From the sequence record PZ445451.1: a DNA stretch of 64,000 nt. One strand, written 5' to 3'. The notes beneath the pieces were generated by a model. It searched no databases and was not told the origin of the DNA. It was given only the letters and a program-made list of their open reading frames with translations. Positions within the stretch are counted from its first letter, which is position 1; each line of letters opens with the position of its first letter. This document shows positions 19,423 to 64,000 of the stretch, piece by piece. Both the position numbers and the translations under genes were made by a program. This DNA is from a phage.

Positions 19423-19502
19423 ATGACTTTACTAGAGAGTATCGTAGTGTTAATCATCTTTATCATTGTTGTCATAGGATATTTTACAGAAGACTAAAAT
19501 AA

Positions 19503-19536
19503 AGCCCCTAGAATCGCTTCTAGGGGCTTTTGTTTG
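19503..19536 (+). terminator. strong rho-independent terminator closing the plus-strand early block
   Basis: 11 bp stem AGCCCCTAGAA / TTCTAGGGGCT, TCGC loop, T-rich tail. Confidence 0.7.
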
Positions 19537-19597: not shown

Positions 19598-19855
19598 TTA
19601 GGAATGCATAAAATCTTCTTCAGGGCAGGTTGAGAGATAAGAGATGCACGTTGGGACAACAACAACATTGTCTTTAAGGTTTTCAACCAAGCCTTTTGTA
19701 ATCCCAGCCACTGCCCCGTTAATATCTGCTTGACGGATACCAAAGCCTTGTTGTGCGGATAGATAACAAAATCCCTCACCTTTCTGTTGATTGTTATTGA
19801 AGTAATAAACGTAGTGCATCATAAAATGGTCTTTAACGATTTGTTCTGTGGTCAT
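19598..19855 (-). CDS. hypothetical protein (85 aa)
   Basis: Track ORF; AGGAGA RBS; last gene of the minus-strand block. Confidence 0.55.
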   Translation of the reverse strand: MTTEQIVKDHFMMHYVYYFNNNQQKGEGFCYLSAQQGFGIRQADINGAVAGITKGLVENLKDNVVVVPTCISYLSTCPEEDFMHS

Positions 19856-19870
19856 AATATTCTCCTATAA

Positions 19871-19890
19871 GAAAAGGGGCTTTCGCCCCC
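19871..19890 (-). terminator. GGGGC-TTTC-GCCCC hairpin terminator (minus orientation)
   Basis: Hairpin followed by a U-run on the minus strand, downstream of the Sir2-like gene; same hairpin type recurs at 31162 and 44251. Confidence 0.5.
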
Positions 19891-19899
19891 TTGGTTAAG

Positions 19900-20712
19900 T
19901 TATTTAGTCAAATGATCTTCTATCATTTTTATGAAAGCAGGATTGCTAAAAGCATCTGCGGCCTTTTCTCGATAAACAAAAACTCCTCTATCTTCGTAAA
20001 GAAGAGTTTCTTCGTAATTAATTCCTGGGTTAACAACAATCATTTTTGTACCCATACTAAGTGCAGGGAATAATTCCCAATTAAAATTGATAACTTGGTT
20101 TGAACATCCTACTACAACAACCAAATCTTGCATGGTCAAAGTATCAAACAAGTGAGCCATATCTGCATACAAAGGTGCAGCCTCACCAAAAAATACAACA
20201 TTAGGCTTCACCCAGTTGTAATCATCTATGTTTATACTGTTGTAACCAATATCTACCAGTGTTTTGTAGTCCCCAGGATGCATACGGTAAACTACTTCAG
20301 GAAGATATCCGTGCACGTGGATAACAGAATCCCTGTCTACACCTGCTCGCTCTAGTAGATCATCAACGTTTGTTGTCAAGTTTACTACTTGGTTAGGATA
20401 TTCCTTAAACCACTTTGCTATTTGAATATGTGCAGCATTAGGTTGTACATCTTTAAGCTCAACACGTCTTTTGTTATAAAATTCGTGTGTTTTGGCATAC
20501 AAATCCATACCGTTTTCGTCTACACCACCAACCACTGGAAGATCTGGTGATGTTCTCACACGATAACCTGCTTGGAAAGCTCCAATATCGCAGATCTCTT
20601 CTAAATCCCATTCTTCCCATAGGGCACGACCACTATCTGTGTCTGTTCGGAATGTTCGAATCCCACTGTCTGCACTTAAACCAGCTCCACTAACAAAAAT
20701 TACTCTTCGCAT
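19900..20712 (-). CDS. Sir2-family protein (sirtuin-like NAD+-dependent deacylase / ADP-ribosyltransferase / NADase), no zinc ribbon
   Basis: GAGLSADSGIRTFR matches the sirtuin GAGIS..SGIP.FR NAD-binding motif; TNVDDLLERAG and VIHVHG match the catalytic region; no C-x2-C pairs. Confidence 0.75.
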   Translation of the reverse strand: MRRVIFVSGAGLSADSGIRTFRTDTDSGRALWEEWDLEEICDIGAFQAGYRVRTSPDLPVVGGVDENGMDLYAKTHEFYNKRRVELKDVQPNAAHIQIAKWFKEYPNQVVNLTTNVDDLLERAGVDRDSVIHVHGYLPEVVYRMHPGDYKTLVDIGYNSINIDDYNWVKPNVVFFGEAAPLYADMAHLFDTLTMQDLVVVVGCSNQVINFNWELFPALSMGTKMIVVNPGINYEETLLYEDRGVFVYREKAADAFSNPAFIKMIEDHLTK

Positions 20713-21269
20713 TCAATATCCTCTTCGTAATCATCATCCCAAGAAGATGCGTCGTAACGCTCTTCCTCTTCGAAATCCCAGTTAATTTCTACCCCAAAAT
20801 CTAAAAACAATTTAACAATGTTTTCTGTAGAGTAGTATTTATCATAAGCATTAGCTAGTTCCCAATACTTATCACTCAATTTTTTATAAGTAGGATCATT
20901 ATAGTCATAATCTACTTTATAACTATAGTCATACATCTCTTGTTCAGCTTTAAGCATAGCTTCTGGTGTAAGAAGATTAGGGGACGGACGATTTCTTTCT
21001 TTTAACTTAGAAGCGATCCAGTTTGCAACATTCGCCACTTCACCATCTCGATTATCACCTAAACAACTTGCATAATCTCCATCTTCGTAAGTGCCTAAAT
21101 CCCCATTTACTTCATGTACAATAGATGAATACGATCCACACGTTTCACAATCTGAAAAAGTGTCTACTGTTGTAATATCAATAGATAAAACTGGTAAAGC
21201 CATAGCTTCTTTCACACAAGCCTCCTCATATAATAACATATCATCAAAACCCATATATCCTCCACACAA
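20700..21269 (-). CDS. highly acidic hypothetical protein (189 aa)
   Basis: Track ORF; Asp/Glu/Tyr-rich. Confidence 0.55.
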   Translation of the reverse strand: MCGGYMGFDDMLLYEEACVKEAMALPVLSIDITTVDTFSDCETCGSYSSIVHEVNGDLGTYEDGDYASCLGDNRDGEVANVANWIASKLKERNRPSPNLLTPEAMLKAEQEMYDYSYKVDYDYNDPTYKKLSDKYWELANAYDKYYSTENIVKLFLDFGVEINWDFEEEERYDASSWDDDYEEDIECEE

Positions 21270-21290
21270 ATAAAGCCCCTGATTGGGGCT
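21266..21290 (-). terminator. hairpin terminator (AGCCCC-TGATT-GGGGCT) in minus orientation
   Basis: Downstream of the 21309 gene; U-rich on the minus strand. Confidence 0.45.
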
Positions 21291-21308
21291 TTGGTTAAGT
21301 TTTACGGA

Positions 21309-21917
21309 TTATACCAGACTTTTAAGGTACTTGTCAAGGGCTTCTTGATCACCTTGACAAACATAGCAACGGAAGTCTTGAGCAGAAGGTTCTTTGTCCT
21401 CGTCCCAATCCCAATAAACCGTACCTTTATAACGTGAACCTGGGAACTCGAAATATGCTGTATGAGTAATATGATGTGGGCCACCCCAAAACTGTGTAAA
21501 AGTAAATTGAGGATACGCTGCTTTAACTGTATTTTCAAACCAAGTTTTACGATCTAATGCTTCGTTTATAAAATAAGCATGGCGTTCCATTTCATCCCAG
21601 TTTTTCCAAACGCATTTTTCATCCAGAGAAAAAACAAAATCTTCACTGTTGAATTCATCTGTATCTTCCAAAGTATCATAATCATGTGCACTAGGTATCC
21701 ACCATCCAGCTTCTAATAGTGCTTTCACGGGTACAAAACCTTTTTCAGCATATTGATCAAATTCTTTTACTCTACGTACAGTGCAGTATTCATCTTCACC
21801 ACCAATGTCCAGTAGACAAGCGCCTCTGCGTCTTGCTGCAAGACCATGTGTATCAAAAACTACAACGCTACCTTCACCATCTTCACGATCTACTTGATAT
21901 GCAACTTTTTGAGTCAT
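21309..21917 (-). CDS. hypothetical protein (202 aa)
   Basis: Track ORF; no motif recognised. Confidence 0.6.
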   Translation of the reverse strand: MTQKVAYQVDREDGEGSVVVFDTHGLAARRRGACLLDIGGEDEYCTVRRVKEFDQYAEKGFVPVKALLEAGWWIPSAHDYDTLEDTDEFNSEDFVFSLDEKCVWKNWDEMERHAYFINEALDRKTWFENTVKAAYPQFTFTQFWGGPHHITHTAYFEFPGSRYKGTVYWDWDEDKEPSAQDFRCYVCQGDQEALDKYLKSLV

Positions 21918-26276: not shown

Positions 26277-26849
26277 TTAATGTGTTAATGAAACTGCATA
26301 ACTAAACACAGGTTCAGATATTACATCGGCTACAGTAATAAAAACGTCCTCGTCTTGCGTTGTTTCTACACGACATACAGTTACACCATTTACCACGAAT
26401 TCAACGCAATGTGGAATATCTTCACAAACGAAGGTAGTGTAAGTAACACCCAAAGCATCATACAAAGATTTAACAGTGTTTGCAAGTGCCGCAGTTTCTT
26501 CTTTTTCTGAGACAATGAATGCTGTAACAATAAGATTGTTTGCATAGTTTAGACTGTCCTCTATAGCCAATGATTTACAAGGTAGTAATGCAAAATATTT
26601 ACCTGGTTTAATCAGACCTGCTTCCCATTGATTCAAAATTGCCTGGGATGGTTTAGTAATATAAAATAGATTTTCACTTGGGTTATCAATATTACTTCTG
26701 GCGATACAACGTGAAGGATTATTAATATCAAATACATGATCAAAATCTACACAAACAGGTAAACTGAAAGGTGTAAATTTTTTACCTAATAATCCTATGG
26801 CTGATAATATGTTTGCTGTGCTTATCTTCCCGTTAAAAGCTAAACGCAT
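26277..26849 (-). CDS. hypothetical protein (190 aa)
   Basis: Track ORF. Confidence 0.6.
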   Translation of the reverse strand: MRLAFNGKISTANILSAIGLLGKKFTPFSLPVCVDFDHVFDINNPSRCIARSNIDNPSENLFYITKPSQAILNQWEAGLIKPGKYFALLPCKSLAIEDSLNYANNLIVTAFIVSEKEETAALANTVKSLYDALGVTYTTFVCEDIPHCVEFVVNGVTVCRVETTQDEDVFITVADVISEPVFSYAVSLTH

Positions 26850-31841: not shown

Positions 31842-32108
31842 TTACTCCGCAATCTGAGCCATGAATTCACGTAGTTCAGAAAAACCTCCTACGTGGGTTA
31901 GCTGTTCACCATCTTCCACAAAAATCTGAGGAAATGTGCGTGGTAGAACACCTGTTTTCTCTAAAACCAGATTCTGAATCTGATCTAAAGAATAGTCTTC
32001 ATCTAAGGTAAGGTATTTAAAATCCTGTTCACGCTGTTCCAGTAGAATCTTAGCGTTAGTGCAGAAAGGACAATTTGGTTTACCGTAGATAATAAAATTC
32101 ATTTTCAC
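31842..32108 (-). CDS. glutaredoxin-like protein (redoxin for ribonucleotide reductase)
   Basis: CPFC active site near N-terminus; 88 aa; sits in the RNR neighbourhood. Confidence 0.8.
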   Translation of the reverse strand: MKMNFIIYGKPNCPFCTNAKILLEQREQDFKYLTLDEDYSLDQIQNLVLEKTGVLPRTFPQIFVEDGEQLTHVGGFSELREFMAQIAE

Positions 32109-32935
32109 TCCTTGTTTAAAAGTATAGTTAAAGTTCTTACAATACCGCTATCAACACTTCGCGGATTTAAAGTAGGATCTGTTTTTAAATAAGATGTTGC
32201 TGGTCTGACTGCTTTGGAATTATAGGTTGAAGCAGATACAGGATTAACTGTAACAGACAAATCTATAACAAGAAATATCTTTCGTGCAAAATCATACCAA
32301 GAAATATAATCTGCACCTGCATAGTGTACAATTTTACTATTTACACCATCTTTTACAAGTTTAAAAATTGTTTCTGCAAGATCAGGTGCATAAGTAGGAC
32401 ATGATAAATGATCACATACTACATTAAATTCTTTTTGACCACCGTTGTAGCGTTCCAACATAGTTTTCAAAAAGTTATGTCCAAATTCACTATAAACAGA
32501 AGCTGTTCTGATAATAAGTGCTGTAGGACAAACTGCTTGTACTAAAGTTTCACCTAATTGTTTACTGTAACCGTAGGTGTTCAAGGGGTTTGTTTTACTC
32601 TCTTCTGTGCCAGCAACATGTCCATCAAAAACATAGTCTGTTGAAATATGTACAAACTGTATCAGTAAATCATTACATGCTTTGGCAATGTTTGTTGCAC
32701 CGTATGCATTAACATTTATACAGGTGTTAACATCTTCTTCAGCTTTATCTACTGCCGTGTAAGCCGCACAATTCACAACAACATCAGGCACGTGCTGTAC
32801 AAGACTATTCATAACATCTTTAAAGTTGGTAATGTCTATATCACTTGCTTCAATCAAAATAACATCTTCGGGCGCAACTTTTGCCAAAGACTGTCCTAAT
32901 TGACCTTTTGAACCAAAGACTAAAAATTTTGTCAA
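32105..32935 (-). CDS. rmlD: dTDP-4-dehydrorhamnose reductase
   Basis: N-terminal GSKGQLG Rossmann motif; last gene of an rmlBACD-order cluster. Confidence 0.8.
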   Translation of the reverse strand: MTKFLVFGSKGQLGQSLAKVAPEDVILIEASDIDITNFKDVMNSLVQHVPDVVVNCAAYTAVDKAEEDVNTCINVNAYGATNIAKACNDLLIQFVHISTDYVFDGHVAGTEESKTNPLNTYGYSKQLGETLVQAVCPTALIIRTASVYSEFGHNFLKTMLERYNGGQKEFNVVCDHLSCPTYAPDLAETIFKLVKDGVNSKIVHYAGADYISWYDFARKIFLVIDLSVTVNPVSASTYNSKAVRPATSYLKTDPTLNPRSVDSGIVRTLTILLNKE

Positions 32936-33486
32936 AATATGATCTCCTTTAGTGTTTTGGCTTCCTGATCTTTTTGTGACAAGATAGGTTTAAAATTAAT
33001 ATCATTAAAGATTAAATCAAAACCCCAATCTATATTGATATCTGGATCATTCCACGCAAGACTACACTCTGAAGTCGGATCGTAATATTCCGTACATTTG
33101 TATTCAAAATCAGCAATATCACTAATCACAACAAAACCATGAGCGAAACCAGGAGGAATCCAAAATTGTGTTTTATTCTTTTCAGATAAGAGAACACCTA
33201 CCCATTCTCCAAATGTTGGACTACCAACTCTAATATCTACAGCAACATCATAAACTTCACCACGAACACAACGTACTAACTTCCCTTGTGGGTTTTTCTT
33301 TTGAAAATGAAGCCCACGTAGAACTCCTCGGATAGAACGTGAATGGTTATCTTGGACAAAGTTTTGTTTACCTATGTATTGATCATATAAAGCCTGATTA
33401 AAACTTTCTAAGAAAAAGCCACGTTCATCTCCGTAAACGTCAGGTTGAATGATCAACAAATCTTCGATTTTTGTTGCTTGAATCAT
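32932..33486 (-). CDS. rmlC: dTDP-4-dehydrorhamnose 3,5-epimerase
   Basis: RGLHFQ cupin motif; ~184 aa. Confidence 0.85.
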   Translation of the reverse strand: MIQATKIEDLLIIQPDVYGDERGFFLESFNQALYDQYIGKQNFVQDNHSRSIRGVLRGLHFQKKNPQGKLVRCVRGEVYDVAVDIRVGSPTFGEWVGVLLSEKNKTQFWIPPGFAHGFVVISDIADFEYKCTEYYDPTSECSLAWNDPDINIDWGFDLIFNDINFKPILSQKDQEAKTLKEIIF

Positions 33487-33498
33487 TTAATTCCCCCT

Positions 33499-34368
33499 TT
33501 ATTTTAATTTAAGTAAATACTTACCGTAGTCTGTTTTACTTAAAACCTCTCCAGAACTTTTTACAGAGTCTAAAGTAATCCATTCATTTTTAAAAGCAAT
33601 CTCTTCCAGGCATGCAACCTTCATACCTTGTTGCTTCTCTATTGCATGAACAAATTGAGATGCTTCCATAAGACTTTCATGTGTTCCTGTATCCAGCCAA
33701 GTGAAACCTCTTCCTAGTTTACAGACACGTAAAGTCTTTTCTTTCCAGTACATCTCATTTATATCCGTAATCTCTAACTCCCCTCTAGCAGAAGGTTTAA
33801 CGCTCTTAGCTTTCTGTATAACAGAATTATCGTAAAAGTACAAGCCTGTGATTGCGTAGTTGCTTTTTGGTGTTTTTGGTTTTTCTTCAATACTCACCAC
33901 TGTACCTTCAGAATCAAACTCAACAACACCAAATCTTTCAGGATCATTTACGTGATACCCAAAAATATTAGCTCCACCATTCTTTTCAATATGTTCTTTA
34001 GCAGAATCTAAAATGCTACCAAAACTCTGACCAAAGAACAAATTATCACCTAGAACAAGTGCTACAGAATCTTCACCAATAAAGTTCTCACCAATAATAA
34101 ATGCTTCTGCTAAACCTTTTGGGCTGTTCTGTACTGCATACTGTAGGGAAATACCAAAAGAAGAACCATCACCTAAAAGATTTACAAAATTAATTTGATC
34201 TTCTGGTGTTGTAATTATTAGTATTTCCCTAATTCCAGAAAGCATTAGGACAGAGAGTGGATAATAAATCATAGGCTTATCGTAAATTGGTAATAGTTGT
34301 TTACTAACCCCTTTAGTAACTGGGTAAAGTCTTGTTCCGCTACCACCTGCTAAGATAATACCTTTCAT
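33499..34368 (-). CDS. rmlA: glucose-1-phosphate thymidylyltransferase
   Basis: [18 protein letters not shown] nucleotidyltransferase signature. Confidence 0.9.
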
Positions 34369-34376
34369 ACTCCTCC

Positions 34377-35366
34377 TTAAACTTTATTTTCCCACCACTC
34401 TTTGTTATCTACATACCAATCAATGGTTGAATAAAGTTTTTCTTCAAATGTGCCTTTAGCTTTCCACCCTAATTCCTTTTCAATCTTATAAGGATTCACT
34501 TCATATCTTAGATCATGTCCAGGTCTATCTGTAACCATCTCAATTAGGCTACAAGCATCTGTTTCAGATGGATACACCGCATCCATATAATCACAAATCA
34601 TATAGATTACATCAATATTAGTTCTAGGGTTTCTGCTCCCAATATTATATGTTTCTCCAGATTTGCCTTTAGTTACTACTAGGTGTAATGCTTCTGCGTG
34701 ATCGTCAACGTATAACCAGTCTCTTACTTGAAGACCATTGCCATAAACAGGGATTGGTTTATTCATCAAGATATTTGTTATCGTTTTAGGTATCAGTTTT
34801 TCTGGATGATGATATGCTCCAAAATTATTTGAACAATTTGTTATAACTGTCGGAATACCATAAGTACGATGCCACGCTCTTACCAAATGATCGCTTGCTG
34901 CCTTAGATGCAGCATATGGACTACTTGGCTTATAAGGATTCTGTTCTGTAAACGGATAATCCCCTTCTTCCATATCACCATACACTTCATCTGTTGAAAT
35001 ATGATGAAACATTTTAAGATTTGATTTATCTCCCATTAAACGAACAGCTTCTAGAAGATTAAATGTTCCAACAATATTTGAATTTATAAAAACACTCGGT
35101 GATGCTATTGAATTATCTACGTGACTTTCTGCTGCAAGATGCATTATATAATCTGGGTTAACATCTGCCACAATCTTAGCAGTTAACTGAGCATTTGTCA
35201 AGTCAACACGACAAAACTTTACATTAGGTGTTTCTGATAAATTTCTAGGGTCTGAAGCGTAACCCCATTTATCTATAACGTAAATATCATTCTTAGTATT
35301 TTTAGCCAGGAAACGAACTACTGCACTTCCAATAAAGCCTAAACCACCTGTTACTAAGTATTTCAT
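34377..35366 (-). CDS. rmlB: dTDP-glucose 4,6-dehydratase
   Basis: GGLGFIGS Rossmann motif, YAASKAA catalytic YxxxK, SDR-extended length. Confidence 0.9.
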
Positions 35367-47854: not shown

Positions 47855-48577
47855 TTAAGCAATGATTGCTGCGATATTAGGTTTAACAAAGGTAGATGGC
47901 TTCATAATTTTACCTTTGTCATCAAAGAATACATATACCTTTTGAACTTCGTTATATACAGCATGTACCCCAGTATAAGAACCTTCTGCACGATCTTTGC
48001 TTCGCATCTCGATAGCATCACACTCTTTTTCAAGAGCTTCAACAATATCTTTAGTTTCCCAAATAGCCAGGAGTTGCTTCTTGGTAGGATACTTGGACTC
48101 ATTGCTATTCAACACTTCACGCATAACCTTCTTCTCGTTATAAACAGAACGTACCAAAGTATCTCGTGCCATGCGTGTAAGTGTAAGAGACATTAGGGCA
48201 AATTGCAAGTCATTTTCTACCATTTTATCAAATTCAATGATAACATCGTAAATGTTTTCTGCCAGAACATCTCCTGTCGGCATTTCCAGAGCTTTATCAA
48301 CACCTTCTTTACCAAAGAACATAAATGCCAGGTAGGATGCTACCACAAAAATATCTGCTGCTGCATCAAGTAATTCAACGTGATCATTTTCCTGTGCTGC
48401 TGCTTGGAACTCTTTAAGTTCTTCTCGTACAAAAGAAAGTTGAGCTTCAAACATCTCTTGAGTAAATTCTGGAGTTACTCCACCACGTGCCTTAGCATTC
48501 CAAGCAACAATTTGATCGGCAGCTTTGATAAAGAAGCTATTGTCCACTTTTACTTGTTTGAAAAAATTCTCGATCAT
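47855..48577 (-). CDS. putative all-alpha NTP pyrophosphohydrolase (MazG-like)
   Basis: EELKEFQAA ... ELLDAAADIF acidic helices reminiscent of MazG; weak. Confidence 0.35.
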   Translation of the reverse strand: MIENFFKQVKVDNSFFIKAADQIVAWNAKARGGVTPEFTQEMFEAQLSFVREELKEFQAAAQENDHVELLDAAADIFVVASYLAFMFFGKEGVDKALEMPTGDVLAENIYDVIIEFDKMVENDLQFALMSLTLTRMARDTLVRSVYNEKKVMREVLNSNESKYPTKKQLLAIWETKDIVEALEKECDAIEMRSKDRAEGSYTGVHAVYNEVQKVYVFFDDKGKIMKPSTFVKPNIAAIIA

Positions 48578-51257: not shown

Positions 51258-51662
51258 TTATTGTAGCTTAAGTGAACTGCGAAGACGTTTCTCTTGCTGA
51301 TCACGAATATGTTGTGGAACCTCATGAATTGAGTCGTTACCGTGCCTATTTTCAACAACTAAAGAGATAACTTGATAACCAAACTCTTCAGCAAGAGTTA
51401 AATAAGGTTTAAGTTCTTTCTCTGTGGTTGAAGTGTTAGAGACAATAATCTTTTTAGTATTAGATGCCATAGCATCACGAACAATACTCTGACACCATGC
51501 GTGTGCTTTACCTACATTCTCTGGCTTCCAATCGTAAACACCACTTTCTGTGTAATGATATTGATCTGCCTCACAGATAGGCCAATAACCTTCAGAAATA
51601 ATTTCTGCTACTGTAGATTTACCTGCACCTGAAACACCACGTAAAATGATAAGTTGTTTCAT
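51258..51662 (-). CDS. polynucleotide 5'-kinase (T4 Pnk kinase-domain-like P-loop protein)
   Basis: MKQLIILRGVSGAGKSTVAEII resembles the T4 Pnkp N-terminus ([23 protein letters not shown]); IIVSNT matches the downstream motif. Confidence 0.65.
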   Translation of the reverse strand: MKQLIILRGVSGAGKSTVAEIISEGYWPICEADQYHYTESGVYDWKPENVGKAHAWCQSIVRDAMASNTKKIIVSNTSTTEKELKPYLTLAEEFGYQVISLVVENRHGNDSIHEVPQHIRDQQEKRLRSSLKLQ

Positions 51663-52595
51663 TTAGCCTCCAAAGAAGTTTTCTATTTCTTTACGTCGCT
51701 CTTGTGGATCTAGAGCAGCCCATTGAACCTTCGTAAAGTTATTTCGAAGCCATTCTAGCAAAGTATAATATTCTTCGTCAACAATTTGTTTAGCATTGTT
51801 TGGGTTGTCCCAAATCATATCCCACTTCTTATTGCCACCACGCATAAGGAACTTCTTAGCAAGATAGTATGGTGACTTAATCTTTAAGAGTAAGTTAAAC
51901 GGATAGTTTGTTTCACGAACAACAAAGCCTTCGTGTCTACAATGTTTAGACATTTCAACAACATCTGAAAATTTAATCATCGGATAAACTTCAGGACGTT
52001 TAAATTTTGTAATAGATGCAATCCCATCAAGAACACCTTCAGGTAACATGAAACTTGTCCCATCAAGATTTTGAATTCTTGCTCCAATTAAGTATGCACC
52101 TGGTTCTTCTTCGACAATATGTGGATCAGAAGGATCACAGATTTCAAAAAGAAAAGTTGCTTTTGCACTTTCTGTCCACTTAATGAAATACTCTATGTCG
52201 TCACACTCGGAAACAATACGGTTCTTTGCCATAATTGCAAAATCTGATTCTAGGCTCCCTGTTGTTGATACAACAAGTTGCCCTTTGTACACACCTACAG
52301 ATGCCATAAAACCGTTTACTTTACGGACAGCATCTACAAGTTCGTCTGCTGGAAGATCTGTACCATTCTCAAAACGATTAAAGATTTTAGTAAAAGGCCA
52401 AATAACAACATTGTCTTCTGAGTCAACAACCAACCCACGGCAATCTAGAAGTCGTTTGTCAACGTTCCACAAATTATCCCAGAATACATTGTTTTTGTAT
52501 TTAAGTACAGCAAGACCAGCATACTCTCCAGATTTAACTTCTTTTTTATGCACTAAACCTTTTGCAATCAGGTCATCACAATTGAACTTAGCCAC
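51663..52595 (-). CDS. RNA ligase (T4 Rnl1-like nucleotidyltransferase)
   Basis: LLDCRGLVV ... PFTKIFNRFEN parallels T4 Rnl1 LECRGIMF ... PMEKFFNLNEN; lysine motif KVNG; stop/start contiguous with the kinase gene. Confidence 0.6.
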   Translation of the reverse strand: MAKFNCDDLIAKGLVHKKEVKSGEYAGLAVLKYKNNVFWDNLWNVDKRLLDCRGLVVDSEDNVVIWPFTKIFNRFENGTDLPADELVDAVRKVNGFMASVGVYKGQLVVSTTGSLESDFAIMAKNRIVSECDDIEYFIKWTESAKATFLFEICDPSDPHIVEEEPGAYLIGARIQNLDGTSFMLPEGVLDGIASITKFKRPEVYPMIKFSDVVEMSKHCRHEGFVVRETNYPFNLLLKIKSPYYLAKKFLMRGGNKKWDMIWDNPNNAKQIVDEEYYTLLEWLRNNFTKVQWAALDPQERRKEIENFFGG

Positions 52596-52596
52596 C

Positions 52597-53148
52597 TTAA
52601 TCTCCTTTGATTATCTTATGATGGTCTACAACAACAATATCACGCTTATCCATAATAGAGATGATTTCGTCAAAATGCAAGATTTTTCCGTGTGCATCCC
52701 AACCAACATCCAACATCTTCCCATACAAATGATCAGGGAATGATCCGTGAGAGTGTCCGTGTAGCATGATTGATCCATGCCCTTGTTTATTCCAGGCAGC
52801 CATAGGGTAATGGCTTAAGACGAAAAACAGCTTCTGATATTTCACTTCGTCATAATAAACCACTTCTCCATACTCTGCAAGCACTTTTCTGTGTTTACTG
52901 TAATCATGGTTCCCAACACAGTAAGTAATATTCCCTTGGAGACGGGAAGCAATCTTACGGGTATCTTCTTCAGTCCCGAAACAGAAGTCCCCAAGATGGT
53001 ACATCTTTACTCCTGGTGTTGTGGCACATTTATTCCATGCTTCGATCAGTGCTTCTGTCATATGCTCCATATTTTCCCACGGGCGATATTCAGGAGCAAA
53101 TTCTCGGATACGTTTGTGCATAAAATGCAAATCACTTGTAATAAACAT
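52597..53148 (-). CDS. calcineurin-like metallophosphoesterase (candidate RNA 3'-phosphatase / 2',3'-cyclic phosphodiesterase)
   Basis: DLHF, GDFCFG and GNHDY metallophosphatase motifs; stop/start contiguous with the RNA ligase gene. Confidence 0.7.
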   Translation of the reverse strand: MFITSDLHFMHKRIREFAPEYRPWENMEHMTEALIEAWNKCATTPGVKMYHLGDFCFGTEEDTRKIASRLQGNITYCVGNHDYSKHRKVLAEYGEVVYYDEVKYQKLFFVLSHYPMAAWNKQGHGSIMLHGHSHGSFPDHLYGKMLDVGWDAHGKILHFDEIISIMDKRDIVVVDHHKIIKGD

Positions 53149-53507
53149 TAGTATAATCCCTCGCTGAATAGTTCACTATCGTGACCATTTCTTTCATAAT
53201 TAATTTGTTTGGCGTTATCTGCAATGATATAAGCATCTTTGCGACTCCACCAGTTATAATACTGATCAATAAACCCTTGATTATCAGGTAAGCAAAACAG
53301 TTTATCAATCAATCCTGCATCTTTTAAAACATTAAGTTGTGCAGATAGTACAGGATTTGCATGCCTAACACAAGGAATAATTAACTCTTCGCCATTGTTG
53401 AGCATATACTTATTCGCAGCGCAGACTATAACACGTTGAGCATAGTGATCCTCACCAATCCAAGTAAGAGGTTGGTAACAAATATCATGTTGATTAGTAG
53501 CGCACAT
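53148..53507 (-). CDS. hypothetical protein (119 aa)
   Basis: Track ORF 53148-53510 (TTG) trimmed to the adjacent ATG. Confidence 0.55.
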   Translation of the reverse strand: MCATNQHDICYQPLTWIGEDHYAQRVIVCAANKYMLNNGEELIIPCVRHANPVLSAQLNVLKDAGLIDKLFCLPDNQGFIDQYYNWWSRKDAYIIADNAKQINYERNGHDSELFSEGLY

Positions 53508-53653
53508 CAATTTTCTTCATACTCTTCGTCTGTATGTATATCGTAAAAGCAATCTTCAAAAGTTGCAAGTGCTTTTTCTACATCGGGCCAATGGTTAGTG
53601 TGTTTGTATATATAAAACCCATCCCCTTCATCTACCCAAATAACATAAAGCAT
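53507..53653 (-). CDS. small acidic protein (48 aa), not in track
   Basis: ATG at 53653 (minus) after GGAGGTG RBS; stop overlaps the next start (TGATG). Confidence 0.4.
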   Translation of the reverse strand: MLYVIWVDEGDGFYIYKHTNHWPDVEKALATFEDCFYDIHTDEEYEEN

Positions 53654-53662
53654 AACACCTCC

Positions 53663-54037
53663 TTAATAGTTAACACGTTTAATTTCAACACCATAGGATG
53701 AAATAAAATTTTCCTTAGCTAACATATATTTACCAGCAGCAGAAGGGTTTGATGTATGGACATAGATAGTTTTAAGAGCATCCCATTCACCCGCATACAA
53801 CATACATTCTACGTCTAAGAATGCATGATATCCTTCCTGATCTTCTCCAAGATCATTATCGAAGTGTATCTCTGAGATATTATTGAAATTATCTTCATCT
53901 GAAACAAAAGATAACCAATCCTCAAAAGATTTTAACCAAATGGCATCCTCATAACCATAATCTTTAGGATCTCTTAAATCGTCTAACCAAAGAATTTTAG
54001 CCACTATCAACCCCCTTCCTGTTTCTCTTCTTTCCAA
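53663..54037 (-). CDS. hypothetical protein (124 aa)
   Basis: Track ORF. Confidence 0.55.
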   Translation of the reverse strand: MERRETGRGLIVAKILWLDDLRDPKDYGYEDAIWLKSFEDWLSFVSDEDNFNNISEIHFDNDLGEDQEGYHAFLDVECMLYAGEWDALKTIYVHTSNPSAAGKYMLAKENFISSYGVEIKRVNY

Positions 54038-56040: not shown

Positions 56041-56934
56041 ATGAAAGTTAGTATTCTACATGGTGTTGATTGCTATGTTACTGATGTAGACGTTAAAGTG
56101 TTTACATTCTCTGGTGGAGAACAACATGTTCAATTAGATACGAATCTATCAGGTTTCAATCATGCTACAGACAGAATCTTACTCTCTTTAGAAGTAAGAT
56201 CTGCTAAAGACTTGATGACTTTGGTTATGACTAAGAATGCATTGGACAATATGCTATATCATAAACCATATTGTGTTGATTTGCTCATGTTGTATGTGCC
56301 ATATGCACGACAAGACAGAGTGTGTGAACCTGGGGAAGCATTCGGAGTTAAAGCATTTGCTTCTATAATTAATTCATTAAATTTCTCACGTGTTATAGTT
56401 GCTGATCCACATAGTGATGTTACTCCAGCAGTGTTTGACAGACTCTGTGTAATACCTCAAGAAGAGATTGCTTACGAAACTTTAAAGTGGAAGTTACGTA
56501 TGGAGAATTTTGCTCTTGTTAGTCCTGATGGTGGTGCTCTTAAGAAAATATTTAAATTATCTAAGAAAATGTCTTTAGATGTGTTCTGTGCAGAGAAGGT
56601 TAGAGATACTGCAACAGGTGCTATTGTTCGTACAGACATTTCTGTACAGGATTTCAATAAGCGTAACCTAATGATCGTAGATGATATCTGTGACGGCGGT
56701 AGAACTTTTATTGAATTGGCTAAAGTGCTACGTGCTCGTAACGCAGGTAAGATTGAGTTATATGTTACACACGGTATCTTTTCTAAAGGTCTTAAAGAGT
56801 TAAGTGAGCACTTTGACTGCATTCATTCTCTTAATGTGTGGGAAGATAACATCCAAGAAGATTCCGGTGTTCTTGTTAAGAATCAGTCGGATTTGCAACA
56901 ACAAATTGTATCTCCATACGTGTGGAATTTTTAA
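56041..56934 (+). CDS. ribose-phosphate pyrophosphokinase family protein (PRPP synthetase or Adps-type ADP-ribose pyrophosphate synthetase)
   Basis: YVPYARQDR, VSPDGG and MIVDDICDGGRT match the Prs ribose-5-P loop and PRPP-binding motif. Confidence 0.85.
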   Translation: MKVSILHGVDCYVTDVDVKVFTFSGGEQHVQLDTNLSGFNHATDRILLSLEVRSAKDLMTLVMTKNALDNMLYHKPYCVDLLMLYVPYARQDRVCEPGEAFGVKAFASIINSLNFSRVIVADPHSDVTPAVFDRLCVIPQEEIAYETLKWKLRMENFALVSPDGGALKKIFKLSKKMSLDVFCAEKVRDTATGAIVRTDISVQDFNKRNLMIVDDICDGGRTFIELAKVLRARNAGKIELYVTHGIFSKGLKELSEHFDCIHSLNVWEDNIQEDSGVLVKNQSDLQQQIVSPYVWNF

Positions 56935-57005: not shown

Positions 57006-58739
57006 ATGAATATTTTTGCACCTTTTGCTACTGATTGGTATAAACCTGGTCACAAGCAGATGTACAACCAAAATACAAAACTCATTTTCTCTAACTTAAC
57101 TCCTCGTAATGATAAAAACTTTGCAAACTACGCAGAACGTGAAGCACGTGGTGTAATTGTTTTAGGTATTCGTCGAGCAGTTACTGATGCTCTTGTAACT
57201 ATGTGGGATAGCTTCTTTAAAATGTCTCGTAGTGCAGCAGTAAATAAGTTTTATCGTATGTCTAAAAATGCATTAGGTGCTTCTGCTCCTTCTGCTGAAT
57301 GTTGGGGAGAATTGCACGATTTAGGTTATCTTCCGCTGGAAGTTCGATCTCTGCCAGAAGGTGTTTTGTGTCCTATTGGTGTTCCTGTGTTTACTGTGCA
57401 TAATACTTTAGAAAAATTCTTTTGGTTAACTAACTATGTGGAAACACTATTGTCAGATGAAACTTGGAAGACAATGACTAATGCTACAGCAGCTTTTCAG
57501 TATAAGCGTATTGCTATGGCATATGCGATGGCAACGTGTGATAATATTGATCACGTTAACTTCCAGTGTCATGATTTTAGCCTACGTGGTTTAAGTAATA
57601 TCGAAGATGGTTATAAGAGTGGTATCGCTCATTTGGCATCTTTCACAGGAACAGATAACATTCTGGCTATTGAGACTGTGCATGATTATTATGGTATTGA
57701 TTATGATCAGTTTGTTGCAGGTTCTATTCCGGCAACAGAACATTCAGTAGCAACGACTAACATTGGAGCTATTGTTGAAGATCTGAAGAAACATTTCCCA
57801 CATCTTAAAGATGATGTTGATGGGCTTCGTTATGTAGCAGAGAAAGAGTTTCTTCGCCGCTATATTGAAGAAATTGTTCCAGAAGGTTTTTGTTCATATG
57901 TAGCAGATTCTTATGATTACTGGGCTGTCTTGACTCGCATTCTGGTAGAATTGAAAGAATCCATTATGTCACGAAATGGTCGTCTTGTTATTCGTCCAGA
58001 TTCAGGAGATCCGGTTAAAGTTGTTGCAGGATACAATGTTGAATCTTTTGCTAACTATGAAGACCTTTTAAATAATGGTATTGCTACAGCCACTGAAGTA
58101 GTTCATTTGGTTGATGTTAATAAATATTACAATGTTCTTCAGGATTGCAGTGTTGCTGATTGTATTGATGAAACTTATGAGATTCCTTATTGTGAAGCAG
58201 TAGGTTCTATTCAAATCCTTTGGGAAGTGTTTGGTGGTACTATCAACCGAAAAGGCTACAAGGTTCTTGATCAGCACATCGGTATGATTTATGGTGATTC
58301 TATTACTGTTGAACGAGAACACGAGATCTTACGCCGACTGAAGAAGAAAGGTTTTGCAGCTTCCAATATTGTATTTGGTGTTGGTAGTTATACTTATCAG
58401 TTCAATACACGAGATACTTTTGGTTTTGCTGTTAAAGCAACAGGTAGTATCATCGGTGAACACGAAATTTTGGTAAGTAAGGAGCCTAAAACTGATCCTG
58501 GTAAACGATCTGCAAAAGGTTTTATTAAGGTTGTTAAGGATACAAATGGTAAACTTTCTCTTGTGGATAATCTTTCTTTTAAAGATATCCAAGATGAAGA
58601 CAATGAGTTAAAAGTTATCTTCAGGGATGGTACGGTTATTACACCACAAGTAGAAGGACGTGATGAAACATTTACTGATATCCGTAACCGTGTTGATGTA
58701 GAGGTTCTTCGTACTATGGGAACCATCCAGGTTGACTAA
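57006..58739 (+). CDS. nicotinamide phosphoribosyltransferase family protein (NadV/NAMPT or Namat-type)
   Basis: TDWYKPGH, PEGVLCPIGVPVFTVHNT, FWLTNYVETLL, HDFSLRGLSN and FTGTDNILA align with conserved NAMPT blocks. Confidence 0.85.
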   Translation: MNIFAPFATDWYKPGHKQMYNQNTKLIFSNLTPRNDKNFANYAEREARGVIVLGIRRAVTDALVTMWDSFFKMSRSAAVNKFYRMSKNALGASAPSAECWGELHDLGYLPLEVRSLPEGVLCPIGVPVFTVHNTLEKFFWLTNYVETLLSDETWKTMTNATAAFQYKRIAMAYAMATCDNIDHVNFQCHDFSLRGLSNIEDGYKSGIAHLASFTGTDNILAIETVHDYYGIDYDQFVAGSIPATEHSVATTNIGAIVEDLKKHFPHLKDDVDGLRYVAEKEFLRRYIEEIVPEGFCSYVADSYDYWAVLTRILVELKESIMSRNGRLVIRPDSGDPVKVVAGYNVESFANYEDLLNNGIATATEVVHLVDVNKYYNVLQDCSVADCIDETYEIPYCEAVGSIQILWEVFGGTINRKGYKVLDQHIGMIYGDSITVEREHEILRRLKKKGFAASNIVFGVGSYTYQFNTRDTFGFAVKATGSIIGEHEILVSKEPKTDPGKRSAKGFIKVVKDTNGKLSLVDNLSFKDIQDEDNELKVIFRDGTVITPQVEGRDETFTDIRNRVDVEVLRTMGTIQVD

Positions 58740-63325: not shown

Positions 63326-63757
63326 ATGATGATACTGACTATGTTAATAAACCTACTGAAGAATAAATGGGTTAGGTATTTTGTTCTTATTATAGCACTG
63401 TTTGGTGGTTTGTATGTTGGTTTAAACAAATTACACGATGACGTGTATGCACAAGGCTACAACGCAGGTATTGCTAAACAAGAACAAATATTACAACAAA
63501 ACCAAATTAAAGCAAAACAGCAATTCGATATCTTACAAGCAAAAGCAGATTCAGAAAGATCTAAATTGAATGAAAAAATTCATTCATTAACGAAACAAAG
63601 AAATGATCTTCTTACACAACTGGATAAGAAGAGTAATAACATAACACAAGAGAGAATAGATTATGCGAAAACATCTTCTGGCGCTATGTCTTGTTTTAGC
63701 CCTAATGATGACGGGTTGCGCATCATCAACAACAGCTTCCCAGCCTCTATTGATTGA
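63326..63757 (+). CDS. i-spanin-like protein (Rz-like: N-terminal TM helix plus coiled-coil periplasmic domain)
   Basis: Hydrophobic WVRYFVLIIALFGGLYVGL followed by Gln/Lys-rich coiled coil; start codon uncertain. Confidence 0.45.
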   Translation: MMILTMLINLLKNKWVRYFVLIIALFGGLYVGLNKLHDDVYAQGYNAGIAKQEQILQQNQIKAKQQFDILQAKADSERSKLNEKIHSLTKQRNDLLTQLDKKSNNITQERIDYAKTSSGAMSCFSPNDDGLRIINNSFPASID

Positions 63758-63992
63758 GCAGTGTAAAGCTGTAGCAACACAACAAATAAAAGCCCCTGAT
63801 TCTGTCAGTATGGAAAAACCATCTACCCCTGTTTTATATACTCCCAATCAAATAAAGAAAGGGGTTACAAGATCAGAGGTAGTGGATAATCAAACTTTAA
63901 ACAACGCTTTGTGGGAAAAAGATAGGATAAAACTTATCAGTTTACAAAACTATATTAAAACATTACAAAGTGAAGGAATAATTTCTAATTAG
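63663..63992 (+). CDS. o-spanin-like outer-membrane lipoprotein (Rz1-like), start embedded in the i-spanin gene in another frame
   Basis: MRKHLLALCLVLALMMTGC signal peptide with lipobox L-M-M-T-G-C. Confidence 0.5.
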   Translation: MRKHLLALCLVLALMMTGCASSTTASQPLLIEQCKAVATQQIKAPDSVSMEKPSTPVLYTPNQIKKGVTRSEVVDNQTLNNALWEKDRIKLISLQNYIKTLQSEGIISN

Positions 63993-64000
63993 GAGGAGAT

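What the first reader, a model, noticed from the sequence alone, without database searches (positions are those of the whole stretch)
19900..20712. Phage-encoded Sir2-family protein without a zinc ribbon, in a genome that also carries an NAD+ salvage/reconstitution module
The protein has the sirtuin NAD+-binding signature (GAGLSADSGIRTFR, TNVDDLLERAG, HG) but no Cys-x2-Cys zinc-ribbon pairs, as in defence-associated SIR2 NADases rather than CobB-type deacetylases. In a phage it could deacylate or ADP-ribosylate host targets, or consume NAD+. Having both an NAD+-using enzyme and NAD+-rebuilding genes in one phage is notable. It has its own hairpin terminator immediately downstream.
Basis: partly seen in the sequence, partly recalled or inferred. 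Interest (0 to 1): 0.6.

Follow-up and report, generated by a model that had tools for sequence, protein, structure and literature searches.

The report
Phage CobB-like sirtuin, zinc ligands lost
This is an already annotated gene of coliphage PaulScherrer for a canonical, CobB/SIRT5-like sirtuin whose zinc-binding cysteines have decayed; it belongs to a widespread phage family whose real substrate (acylated proteins or damaged RNA ends) has not, as far as I could find, been tested.

Summary
Window 19900-20712 (-) encodes a 270-aa Sir2-family protein with the quoted motifs and only two cysteines, neither in a CxxC pair. A conserved hairpin follows it, and an NAD+ module lies 36 kb away. The window is Escherichia phage PaulScherrer (Bas60), where the gene is already annotated as 'sirtuin family protein'.

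The reading 'like defence-associated SIR2 NADases rather than CobB' is not supported.
- Profile searches hit only Pfam SIR2 (PF02146). PADLOC gives nothing significant.
- The class III Tyr-x-x-Arg motif, the catalytic His and the acyl-lysine tunnel residues are conserved.
- Relatives at 35-40% identity carry an intact four-Cys ribbon around the same 'DIGY' motif. So this protein has a degenerate zinc ribbon, not a ribbon-less architecture.

The NAD+ module is NARP1 (Adps + Namat).

Function is untested. Most likely it is an NAD+-dependent lysine deacylase (about 0.45). The main rival is the published prediction of a KptA-like RNA 2'-phosphate remover, supported by operons in related phages (about 0.3).

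Zinc-less phage sirtuins alongside NAD+ salvage genes were described in 2016 and 2022. Interest is low to moderate.

The parts
19900..20712 (-). Sir2-family (class III/CobB-like) sirtuin gene, 270 aa, bas60_0185
   Evidence: ORF. Pfam PF02146 E=2.8e-22. PHROG 2162. Best solved relative is CobB 1s5p. AF2 model pLDDT 95. Annotated 'sirtuin family protein' in MZ501100.1.
19873..19892 (-). Conserved GC-rich hairpin with GAAA tetraloop, 8 nt after the Sir2 stop codon; weak U-tract; partial terminator or RNA-stabilising element
   Evidence: Terminator scan. RNAfold -15 kcal/mol, z -2.6. Stem conserved with loop variants GAAA/TTCG/TACG in phAPEC8 and IMG/VR relatives.
19598..19855 (-). Last gene of the unit, bas60_0184, 85 aa, PHROG 15991, function unknown
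   Evidence: A homologous gene follows Sir2 in phAPEC8.
19501..19530 (.). Strong bidirectional terminator hairpin where the leftward and rightward gene blocks converge; real end of the Sir2 transcription unit
   Evidence: 13-bp stem found on both strands. -22.1 kcal/mol, z -5.3.
20700..21254 (-). Upstream gene bas60_0186: acidic 184-aa protein, PHROG 9509, stop overlaps the Sir2 start by 13 nt (likely translational coupling), function unknown
   Evidence: No credible Pfam, NCBIfam or PDB match. Restricted to Stephanstirmvirinae. Same arrangement in phAPEC8.
21308..21337 (-). Perfect sigma-70 consensus promoter (TTGACA-18-TATAAT with TG) upstream of bas60_0186 and Sir2
   Evidence: It is the only perfect match in the 64-kb window. 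Conserved with one mismatch in relatives.
56041..56934 (+). Adps (PRPP-synthetase-like ADP-ribose pyrophosphokinase), first gene of NARP1
   Evidence: TIGR01251 118.8 bits, PHROG 619. Listed as the PaulScherrer Adps MZ501100_00239 in the supplement of Osterman et al..
57006..58739 (+). Namat (Nampt-like nicotinamide ADP-ribose transferase), second gene of NARP1
   Evidence: NF006629 461 bits, PHROG 448. Listed as 'Adps-associated' MZ501100_00240 in the supplement of Osterman et al..
51258..54004 (-). RNA-repair cluster: kinase 51258-51662, RNA ligase 51663-52595, calcineurin-like phosphoesterase 52597-53148, cREC 53663-54004. It would partner Sir2 only under the rival RNA-repair hypothesis. 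In this genome it lies about 31 kb from Sir2.
   Evidence: Annotation. Pfam. phmmer matches to the cREC and kinase genes that flank Sir2 in phages AlexBoehm and KPP-1.

Best explanation
The gene encodes a catalytically competent canonical sirtuin descended from the bacterial class III (CobB/SIRT5) branch.

Proposed mechanism:
- It binds NAD+ in the Rossmann cleft.
- An acyl-lysine side chain enters the hydrophobic tunnel, and its distal negative charge is held by Tyr79 and Arg82.
- The acyl oxygen attacks C1' of the nicotinamide ribose and nicotinamide is released.
- His134 activates the ribose hydroxyl, giving the free lysine plus 2'-O-acyl-ADP-ribose.

On this view it is a phage-supplied NAD+-dependent protein lysine deacylase (deacetylase or desuccinylase type). 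It is expressed early from a strong host-type promoter and resets acylation on host or phage proteins during infection.

The four zinc-ligand cysteines of the ancestral ribbon have been replaced, mostly by aromatic and polar residues, without loss of the module's fold.

The nicotinamide and ADP-ribose-derived products could be turned back into NAD+ by the phage's NARP1 enzymes.

Shown here: family, fold, conservation of catalytic and pocket residues, degenerate ribbon, operon layout. Inferred: the activity, the substrate and the link to NARP1.
For: Family:
- Pfam SIR2 is the only family hit.
- The best NCBIfam hits are all NAD-dependent protein deacylase models.
- The best solved relatives by sequence are E. 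coli CobB (E=6e-18), then Sir2Af2, Sir2Tm and SIRT5.

Fold:
- The AF2 model has pLDDT 95 and pTM 0.91.
- Foldseek's top hits are CobB (TM 0.85 on the target), Sir2Af1 and SIRT5.

Residues:
- Invariant or nearly invariant across 149 sequences: G9-A10-G11, S16, F21, R22, Y79, R82, R83, N115, D117, H134, G135, F175.
- Y79/R82 align with CobB Y92/R95, the class III acidic-acyl motif. F175, V172 and V207 align with the CobB tunnel residues F190, V187 and V219. C41 aligns with the small residue A76.

Zinc module: relatives carry an intact CxxC...DIGY...CPxC module, so the module here is homologous.

Expression: a consensus promoter lies upstream.
Against: - No biochemical data were found for any member of this phage clade.
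- The protein falls far below the curated cut-offs of every CobB equivalog model, for example 84 against 320 bits.
- In the enterobacterial-phage clade the substrate-binding 'V-x-P' loop is replaced by a strictly conserved VINFNWE. The cofactor loop carries a conserved four-residue insertion (TDTxSG), and the TQNID Gln is replaced by Thr. These changes suggest a specialised, possibly non-peptide substrate.
- In Vequintavirus, Mydovirus, T5-like phages and a megaphage, the orthologue sits in tight operons with RNA ligase, cREC, kinase or HAD_SAK_2 genes. That favours an RNA-end-processing role.
Confidence: 0.45

Rival explanations
1. RNA-repair sirtuin, the prediction of Iyer, Burroughs, Anantharaman and Aravind 2022. 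The enzyme would act like KptA/Tpt1. A 2'-phosphate on a cleaved or re-ligated RNA (tRNA) attacks NAD+ and nicotinamide leaves. His134 then promotes transesterification, giving 2'-OH RNA plus ADP-ribose 1''-2'' cyclic phosphate. cREC and phosphoesterases would process that product further. Tyr79/Arg82 would hold a phosphate instead of a carboxylate.
For: - The prediction is published for exactly this clade, naming phage V5, Mydo and SP15 neighbourhoods (PMC9503650).
- Checked here independently. In AlexBoehm the order is RNA ligase, cREC, Sir2, MazG-like, with overlaps or gaps of at most 14 nt. In KPP-1 it is RNA ligase, cREC, kinase, one small ORF, Sir2, DNA ligase. T5-like phages have Sir2 followed by HAD_SAK_2.
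- A four-Cys relative lies 1.2 kb from a T4 Rnl1-type ligase in a 607-kb contig.
- An RNA-repair gene lies within 6 kb in 9 of 29 representative IMG/VR loci.
- DT57C lost Sir2 and HAD_SAK in one deletion.
- The clade-specific conserved VINFNWE loop and cofactor-loop insertion fit a changed substrate.
- PaulScherrer has the kinase, ligase, phosphoesterase and cREC genes and many tRNA genes.
Against: - In this genome and in phAPEC8 the gene is not in the RNA-repair cluster. It lies about 31 kb away, in its own promoter-to-terminator unit with unrelated small genes.
- 20 of 29 representative loci show no RNA-repair neighbour at the sensitivity used.
- The hydrophobic lysine-sized tunnel residues are conserved.
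- The protein is acidic, with pI 4.8 and net charge -15.
- No sirtuin acting on RNA turned up in my literature searches, and no experiment on this one was found.
Confidence: 0.3
2. Protein or nucleic-acid mono-ADP-ribosyltransferase. The sirtuin transfers ADP-ribose from NAD+ onto a host target, as SirTM or SIRT6/SIRT4 side activities do, to redirect host functions.
Against: - It is closer to deacylases than to SirTM in both sequence and structure.
- No macrodomain or lipoyl-carrier partner was detected among the three flanking genes scanned, bas60_0184, 0186 and 0187.
- The YxxR acidic-acyl motif and the catalytic His are fully conserved, as in deacylases.
Confidence: 0.08
3. NAD+ glycohydrolase. 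The enzyme simply destroys NAD+, for example for host shut-off or superinfection exclusion.
For: It lacks zinc ligands, as defence SIR2 domains do. The NAD+ site is intact.
Against: - There is no match to SIR2_2 or to PADLOC defence models.
- It has no sensor or partner domain.
- The zinc loss is secondary within a ribbon-bearing family.
- The acyl-substrate pocket is conserved.
- NAD+ destruction would oppose the phage's own NARP1 pathway, which rebuilds NAD+ from ADPR and nicotinamide at the cost of ATP.
Confidence: 0.07

Closest known systems
E. coli CobB and the class III sirtuins (SIRT5)
   Same: Best sequence and structure match. The NAD+ motifs, catalytic His, FGE loop, Tyr-x-x-Arg acidic-acyl motif and a small residue at the A76 position are shared. 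It is single-domain and of similar size.
   Different: Only about 27% identical. It falls below all curated CobB model cut-offs. All zinc-ligand cysteines are lost. TQNID is changed to TTNVD, and V-x-P to VINFNWE. There is a four-residue insertion in the cofactor loop and a 22-residue insertion at residues 50-71. It is encoded by a virulent phage.
Phage sirtuin clade (PHROG 2162; the Sir2-like genes of T5, rV5, phi92 and Mydo, and more distantly KVP40/phiSt2/phiGrn1 'Sir2/CobB')
   Same: It is a member: 47-68% identical to the Vequintavirus, Mydovirus, T5-like and phAPEC8 proteins and 38-41% to the Vibrio phage proteins. The lack of zinc ligands and the co-occurrence with NAD+ salvage genes were already described for phiSt2 and KVP40 (PMC5107563).
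   Different: In Stephanstirmvirinae the gene has left the RNA-ligase/cREC operon. It sits in its own unit behind a lineage-specific acidic protein. This genome carries NARP1 rather than the NARP2 of KVP40.
Defence-associated SIR2 NADases (ThsA, DSR1/2, SIR2-HerA, SIR2-APAZ, Avs5)
   Same: Sirtuin-type Rossmann fold that uses NAD+, with no zinc ligands.
KptA/Tpt1 RNA 2'-phosphotransferase
   Same: It would be a functional analogue under the rival hypothesis. Both reactions are two-step and NAD+-dependent, releasing nicotinamide and passing through a ribose-linked intermediate. The gene neighbourhoods in related phages are comparable (PMC9503650).
   Different: Unrelated fold (ART superfamily against sirtuin Rossmann fold). 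No activity on RNA has been shown for this protein.

Membership tests
Sir2 family (Pfam PF02146, canonical sirtuins) | Profile match above the curated threshold | tested here: met
   80 bits against a cut-off of 24, E=2.8e-22.
Sir2 family (Pfam PF02146, canonical sirtuins) | NAD+-binding motifs (GAGxS, FR, xNxD) and the catalytic His | tested here: met
   G9-A10-G11, S16, F21, R22, N115, D117 and H134 are invariant or at least 90% conserved in 149 sequences.
Sir2 family (Pfam PF02146, canonical sirtuins) | Rossmann domain plus small helical/ribbon domain fold | tested here: met
Sir2 family (Pfam PF02146, canonical sirtuins) | Four-Cys structural zinc site | tested here: not met
   There are no Cys in residues 130-178. 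54 of 95 more distant relatives have four Cys at homologous positions.
Sir2 family (Pfam PF02146, canonical sirtuins) | NAD+-dependent deacylase activity | not testable with these tools
   Needs enzyme assays.
Class III sirtuins (CobB/SIRT5) | Tyr-x-x-Arg motif that binds acidic acyl groups | tested here: met
   Y79/R82 align with CobB Y92/R95. Y79 is invariant and R82 is present in 146 of 149 sequences.
Class III sirtuins (CobB/SIRT5) | Score above the curated CobB equivalog or subfamily cut-offs (NCBIfam) | tested here: not met
   Best scores are 104.6 bits against 243 (NF001753) and 84.3 against 320 (NF040867).
Defence-associated SIR2 NADases | Match to SIR2_2 (PF13289) or to PADLOC defence-system models | tested here: not met
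   Pfam at E<=1 returns only PF02146. The best PADLOC hit is 13.8 bits over 37 residues.
Defence-associated SIR2 NADases | Fusion or operon with a sensor or partner (SLOG, TIR, HerA, pAgo, STAND, DSR C-terminal domains) | tested here: not met
   Single-domain 270-aa protein. The three flanking genes scanned (bas60_0184, 0186, 0187) have no significant domain match.
Defence-associated SIR2 NADases | Closest structural neighbours are defence SIR2 domains | tested here: not met
Phage 'RNA-repair' sirtuin clade (Iyer et al. 2022) | Sequence membership in the clade typified by the phage V5, Mydo and T5-like/SP15 sirtuins | tested here: met
   47% identical to the Vequintavirus protein, 56% to Mydovirus and 51% to Tequintavirus over the full length. 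Shared clade-specific motifs.
Phage 'RNA-repair' sirtuin clade (Iyer et al. 2022) | Gene neighbourhood with RNA ligase, cREC, kinase, MazG, HAD or 2H genes | tested here: not met
   This is the result for this genome. The cluster exists at 47.9-54.0 kb, but Sir2 is at 19.9-20.7 kb in a separate unit. The feature is met in AlexBoehm, KPP-1 and T5-like phages.
Phage 'RNA-repair' sirtuin clade (Iyer et al. 2022) | NAD+-dependent removal of RNA 2'-phosphate | not testable with these tools
   This is a computational prediction only. No experimental paper was found.
NARP1 (the genome's NAD+ module) | Adjacent PRPS-like Adps and Nampt-like Namat of the Adps-associated clade, with no Nmnat partner required | tested here: met
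   Adjacent genes at 56041-56934 and 57006-58739. Both are listed for MZ501100 in the supplementary tables of Osterman et al., with Namat marked 'Adps-associated'.

The most novel reading that the evidence does not exclude
This phage sirtuin may not be a protein deacylase at all. It could be an enzyme acting on nucleic acid, using NAD+ to strip 2'-phosphates from broken or re-ligated tRNA/RNA (a sirtuin analogue of Tpt1/KptA). Its class III Tyr/Arg pair would be repurposed to hold phosphate. The ADP-ribose and nicotinamide by-products would go back into NAD+ through NARP1, so the phage would run a closed NAD+ cycle for RNA repair. This extends a published prediction. My evidence neither confirms nor excludes it.
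Probability: 0.28. Interest if true: 0.75.

Novelty: already known. Interest (0 to 1): 0.3.

Why it matters
About 2% of sequenced phage genomes carry this sirtuin (983 of 50,697 records). These include the T5-like, rV5-like, phi92-like and KVP40-like groups, some of which are used in phage therapy. I found no test of its activity.

It sits where two active topics meet: NAD+ warfare between phages and bacteria, and phage RNA repair against anticodon nucleases. Showing which substrate it uses would either add a viral regulator of host protein acylation or reveal a new chemistry for the sirtuin fold.

As a genome-scan finding, however, the gene, its missing zinc ligands and its co-occurrence with NAD+ salvage genes are all already annotated and discussed in print. 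The specific 'defence-like NADase' reading is wrong.

Tried and rejected
- Single-sequence AlphaFold run gave pLDDT 41 and was unusable. It was replaced by a 149-sequence alignment.
- PADLOC scan for defence relatives found nothing meaningful.
- Reading the NAD+ module as classical Prs + Nampt salvage or NARP2 was rejected. The genes are listed as Adps and Adps-associated Namat (NARP1) by Osterman et al., who found no phage with both pathways.
- I tested whether the upstream gene bas60_0186 explains Sir2's function. It has no Pfam, NCBIfam or PDB relative. It is not a paralogue of bas60_0197, the other gene labelled 'aminoacyl-tRNA synthetase'. It is confined to one phage subfamily. Its role stays unknown.
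- Literature searches for any experiment on a phage sirtuin or on a sirtuin acting as a 2'-phosphotransferase found only computational papers.
- I checked whether Sir2 and NAD+ rebuilding genes are obligatorily linked. They are within 6 kb in 6 of 29 representative loci. Namat/Nampt homologues occur in 2031 phage records, many from host genera (Staphylococcus, Pseudomonas, Mycobacterium, Bacillus, Listeria) that are not among the ten genera named in the Sir2 tally. So the linkage is not obligatory.
- Model coordinates could not be read, so the tunnel width and the electrostatics of the active site were not analysed. Only the whole-protein pI was computed.
Full report
**What is there**

The minus-strand ORF at 19900..20712 starts with ATG and encodes 270 aa. 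It contains GAGLSADSGIRTFR at residues 9-22, TNVDDLLERAG at 114-124 and HVHG at 132-135. It has only two cysteines, C41 and C203, and neither is part of a CxxC pair.

The window is 100% identical to Escherichia phage PaulScherrer (BASEL Bas60, MZ501100.1, Justusliebigvirus, Stephanstirmvirinae). Window position equals record position minus 87100. The last 675 bases wrap to the start of the record.

The gene is bas60_0185, already annotated as 'sirtuin family protein'. Its orthologues in phi92 and dozens of related phages carry Sir2, CobB or deacetylase labels.

**Which kind of sirtuin**

Sequence evidence:
- At E<=1 the only Pfam family hit is the canonical SIR2 family PF02146, at 80 bits against a cut-off of 24. 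The defence-type SIR2_2 family is not hit.
- PADLOC gives only a 13.8-bit fragment.
- PHROG 2162, 'Sir2 (NAD-dependent deacetylase)', matches end to end with E=7e-104.
- All NCBIfam hits are NAD-dependent protein deacylase models. All are far below their curated cut-offs, so this is a diverged relative and not a CobB orthologue.
- Among solved structures the best sequence matches are E. coli CobB (1s5p, E=6e-18). Sir2Af2, Sir2Tm and SIRT5 follow.

Structure evidence:
- An AlphaFold model built on 149 homologues is confident, with pLDDT 95 and pTM 0.91.
- Foldseek ranks CobB first (TM 0.85 normalised on CobB), then Sir2Af1 and SIRT5. No defence SIR2 appears in the top 50.

**The missing zinc site**

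I aligned the protein with 148 homologues from two searches. Residues 135-172 read VVYRMHPGDYKTLVDIGYNSINIDDYNWVKPNVV.

This segment is homologous to a classical zinc ribbon in relatives that are 35-40% identical. One example is MRCEACGKVWDIGYTEFKAGEDTCPKCGSKKGVKPNVV. Of these 95 more distant sequences, 54 have exactly four Cys in the segment. Of the 54 closer sequences (mostly enterobacterial-phage type), 38 have none.

The 'DIGY' motif between the two Cys pairs is conserved in both groups. The model keeps three strands there (135-143, 151-154, 167-172), and pLDDT block means across residues 131-180 are 96-98.

This is a degenerate zinc ribbon, not an architecture that never had one. Skliros et al. 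2016 made the same point for the Vibrio phage phiSt2 and KVP40 Sir2/CobB proteins, and listed T5 and other phages as carrying the gene (PMC5107563).

**Active site**

Invariant or at least 90% conserved across the 149 sequences:
- G9-A10-G11, S16, G17, F21, R22, W32
- F78, Y79, N80, R82, R83
- P91, N92, H95
- T113, N115, D117
- H134, G135, P170, F174, F175, G202, N228

Against E. coli CobB:
- Y79/R82 align with Y92/R95. This is the Tyr-x-x-Arg pair that defines class III sirtuins and binds the carboxylate of succinyl- or malonyl-lysine (established knowledge of SIRT5 and CobB).
- H134 aligns with the catalytic H147.
- F175, V172 and V207 align with the tunnel residues F190, V187 and V219.
- C41 aligns with A76, the small residue.

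The enterobacterial-phage clade also has its own strictly conserved changes:
- a four-residue insertion T-D-T-x-S-G in the flexible cofactor loop (residues 23-28);
- TTNVD in place of TQNID;
- G-C-S in place of G-T-S;
- V-I-N-F-N-W-E (207-213) in place of the V-x-P substrate-binding loop.

In addition, a 22-residue insertion (50-71) is found only in some lineages, including this one.

The catalytic machinery and the anion-binding pocket are thus intact, but the substrate-binding surface has been remodelled.

**Local genomic context**

The gene lies near the end of a short leftward transcription unit, in this order:
- A perfect extended sigma-70 promoter, TTGACA-18-TATAAT, at 21308..21337. It is the only perfect match in the 64-kb window.
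- bas60_0186, an acidic 184-aa protein of PHROG 9509.
- Sir2, whose start overlaps the 0186 stop by 13 nt.
- The hairpin at 19873..19892.
- bas60_0184.
- A strong bidirectional terminator at 19501..19530, at -22 kcal/mol.

The same layout occurs in phAPEC8, a different genus whose Sir2 is 68% identical. The promoter and the hairpin are both conserved there. The hairpin keeps its stem and swaps stable tetraloops among GAAA, TTCG and TACG.

The hairpin is therefore a real conserved element. With a weak U-tract and a downstream gene, it looks like an attenuating terminator or an RNA-stability element rather than the gene's 'own' terminator.

**Context in related phages**

- In Vequintavirus AlexBoehm the orthologue (47% identity) lies in the tight run RNA ligase, cREC (PF20274), Sir2, MazG-like. 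A polynucleotide kinase and a phosphoesterase are transcribed divergently next to it.
- In Mydovirus KPP-1 the order is RNA ligase, cREC, kinase, a small ORF, Sir2, DNA ligase. The Prs-like and Nampt-like pair lies about 5 kb upstream.
- In a T5-like phage Sir2 is followed by a HAD_SAK_2 'Swiss-army-knife RNA repair' phosphatase.
- In a jumbo coliphage Sir2 overlaps a Nudix gene.
- In a 607-kb metagenomic phage contig, a four-Cys relative lies 1.2 kb from a T4 Rnl1-type ligase.

I took 29 representative IMG/VR loci (clustered at about 62% identity) and scanned the five nearest genes of each against Pfam. The recurrent families were:
- DNA ligase (4)
- RNA_lig_T4_1 (3)
- HAD_SAK_2 (3)
- AAA_33 kinase (3)
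- NrdD (3)
- NAPRTase/NAMPT (2)
- cREC (2)

Iterated HMM searches over +/-6 kb found an RNA-repair gene in 9 of 29 loci and an Adps or Namat/Nampt gene in 6 of 29.

PaulScherrer has the same repair genes: MazG-like at 47855-48577, DNA ligase at 49401-50516, kinase at 51258-51662, RNA ligase at 51663-52595, phosphoesterase at 52597-53148 and cREC at 53663-54004. They lie 27-33 kb from Sir2.

These results reproduce the gene neighbourhoods from which Iyer et al. 2022 predicted that most viral sirtuins form a distinct clade acting like KptA in RNA repair (PMC9503650). They also show that the linkage is absent in this particular lineage.

**The NAD+ module**

The genes at 56041-56934 and 57006-58739 are PRPP-synthetase-like and Nampt-like. 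The supplementary tables of Osterman et al. list them for MZ501100 as Adps and 'Adps-associated' Namat. That makes them NARP1, which rebuilds NAD+ from ADP-ribose, nicotinamide and ATP. It was shown experimentally in Bas63 to defeat NAD+-depleting defences (bioRxiv 10.1101/2024.02.11.579819).

It is not obligatory:
- Namat/Nampt homologues occur in 2031 phage records. Many come from Staphylococcus, Pseudomonas, Mycobacterium, Bacillus and Listeria phages.
- The sirtuin occurs in 983 records, dominated by Escherichia, Salmonella, Klebsiella and Vibrio phages.

A coupling between sirtuin and Nampt through nicotinamide recycling was already proposed for phiSt2 and KVP40.

**Dispensability**

The T5-like phage DT57C carries only a 90-aa remnant, which its record labels 'defective' by reference to T5. 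The remnant fuses a Sir2 fragment to the C-terminus of the HAD_SAK protein, so a single deletion removed both genes. The gene is accessory.

**Mechanism**

The fold-level claim is a canonical, catalytically competent, class III-derived sirtuin that consumes one NAD+ per turnover and releases nicotinamide. I hold this with high confidence, about 0.9. The substrate is not settled.

- **Protein lysine deacylase (0.45).** I rank this first. Every catalytic and tunnel residue of CobB and SIRT5 is kept, including the narrow hydrophobic tunnel suited to a lysine side chain and the acidic-acyl Tyr/Arg pair.
- **KptA-like removal of RNA 2'-phosphate (0.30).** This is the main rival. It rests on operon evidence that recurs in several divergent lineages with different repair partners, and on the remodelled substrate loop. 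Against it are the conserved lysine tunnel, the acidic protein (pI 4.8), the absence of the linkage in this genome, and the lack of any reported sirtuin acting on RNA that I could find.
- **Protein or nucleic-acid ADP-ribosyltransferase (0.08).**
- **Plain NADase (0.07).** This is the least compatible with the data, and it would fight the phage's own NARP1.

Under either leading model, the by-products (nicotinamide plus an ADP-ribose derivative) could plausibly be recycled by NARP1 after removal of the acyl or phosphate group. That step is inference only.

**Novelty**

The gene is annotated, and the family is a named PHROG. The zinc-less feature and the link to NAD+ salvage were published in 2016. 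The clade and a specific functional prediction were published in 2022.

I found no experimental characterisation in the searchable literature, so the function remains an open and testable question.

Noticed in passing
window 21272..21337 (-): The only perfect extended sigma-70 consensus promoter in the 64-kb window lies here. A GC-rich hairpin (21272..21292) follows immediately, at about +9 to +29 of the predicted transcript. The hairpin may terminate the upstream gene bas60_0187, stabilise the 5' end of the 0186-Sir2 mRNA, or both. The promoter is conserved with one mismatch in other genera of the subfamily.
   Followed up: partly
window 20700..21254 (-) and 26277..26849 (-): Both genes are labelled 'putative aminoacyl-tRNA synthetase' in the record. 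For bas60_0186 the only support is a sub-threshold PhetRS_B1 hit (E=0.023). It is a very acidic, fast-evolving protein, 36% identical between genera where Sir2 is 68%, and almost confined to Stephanstirmvirinae, with a few weak hits in Erwinia jumbo phages. The two proteins are not paralogues. bas60_0197 matches PHROG 4806, 'histidyl tRNA synthetase'.
   Followed up: partly
window 21309..21917 (-); loci L056 and L057: Homologues of bas60_0187 (202 aa, PHROG 8514, no domain hit) also sit 200-600 nt from the sirtuin gene in two other representative IMG/VR phage lineages. It may be a recurrent unknown partner.
   Followed up: no
L093 (Escherichia phage DT57C) 2468..2740, compared with L004 6001..7499: The annotated 'sir2' of DT57C is a 90-aa chimera of a Sir2 fragment (about residues 171-233) and the last 41 residues of the HAD_SAK RNA-repair phosphatase. 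One deletion removed both genes. PHROG 18062, labelled 'Sir2', is really built on this HAD_SAK C-terminus.
   Followed up: yes
window 63326..64000: The window runs past the end of the linear GenBank record and continues with its first 675 bases (spanin genes). The source was therefore treated as circular.
   Followed up: yes
phage records MG065689.1, MG065656.1, MG065650.1, MG065666.1: Records named 'Campylobacter phage' (A110a, C3, B15, A12a) match genes of these coliphage groups: about 99% identity for Sir2 in A110a and 95% for bas60_0186 in C3, but only 36% and 47% in B15 and A12a. They share the roughly 135-150 kb genome size. They are probably mislabelled or contaminants.
   Followed up: no
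window 32105..35366 (-): A complete rmlABCD-like dTDP-rhamnose pathway (glucose-1-phosphate thymidylyltransferase, 4,6-dehydratase, 3,5-epimerase, reductase) is encoded by a virulent phage. Its purpose was not examined.
   Followed up: no
L012 / L083 (607-kb metagenomic phage contig) 2597..5723: A relative of this sirtuin with an intact four-Cys zinc ribbon lies in a run of T4 Rnl1-type RNA ligase, arginase-family protein, small ORF and sirtuin. The arginase-family neighbour is unexplained.
   Followed up: no
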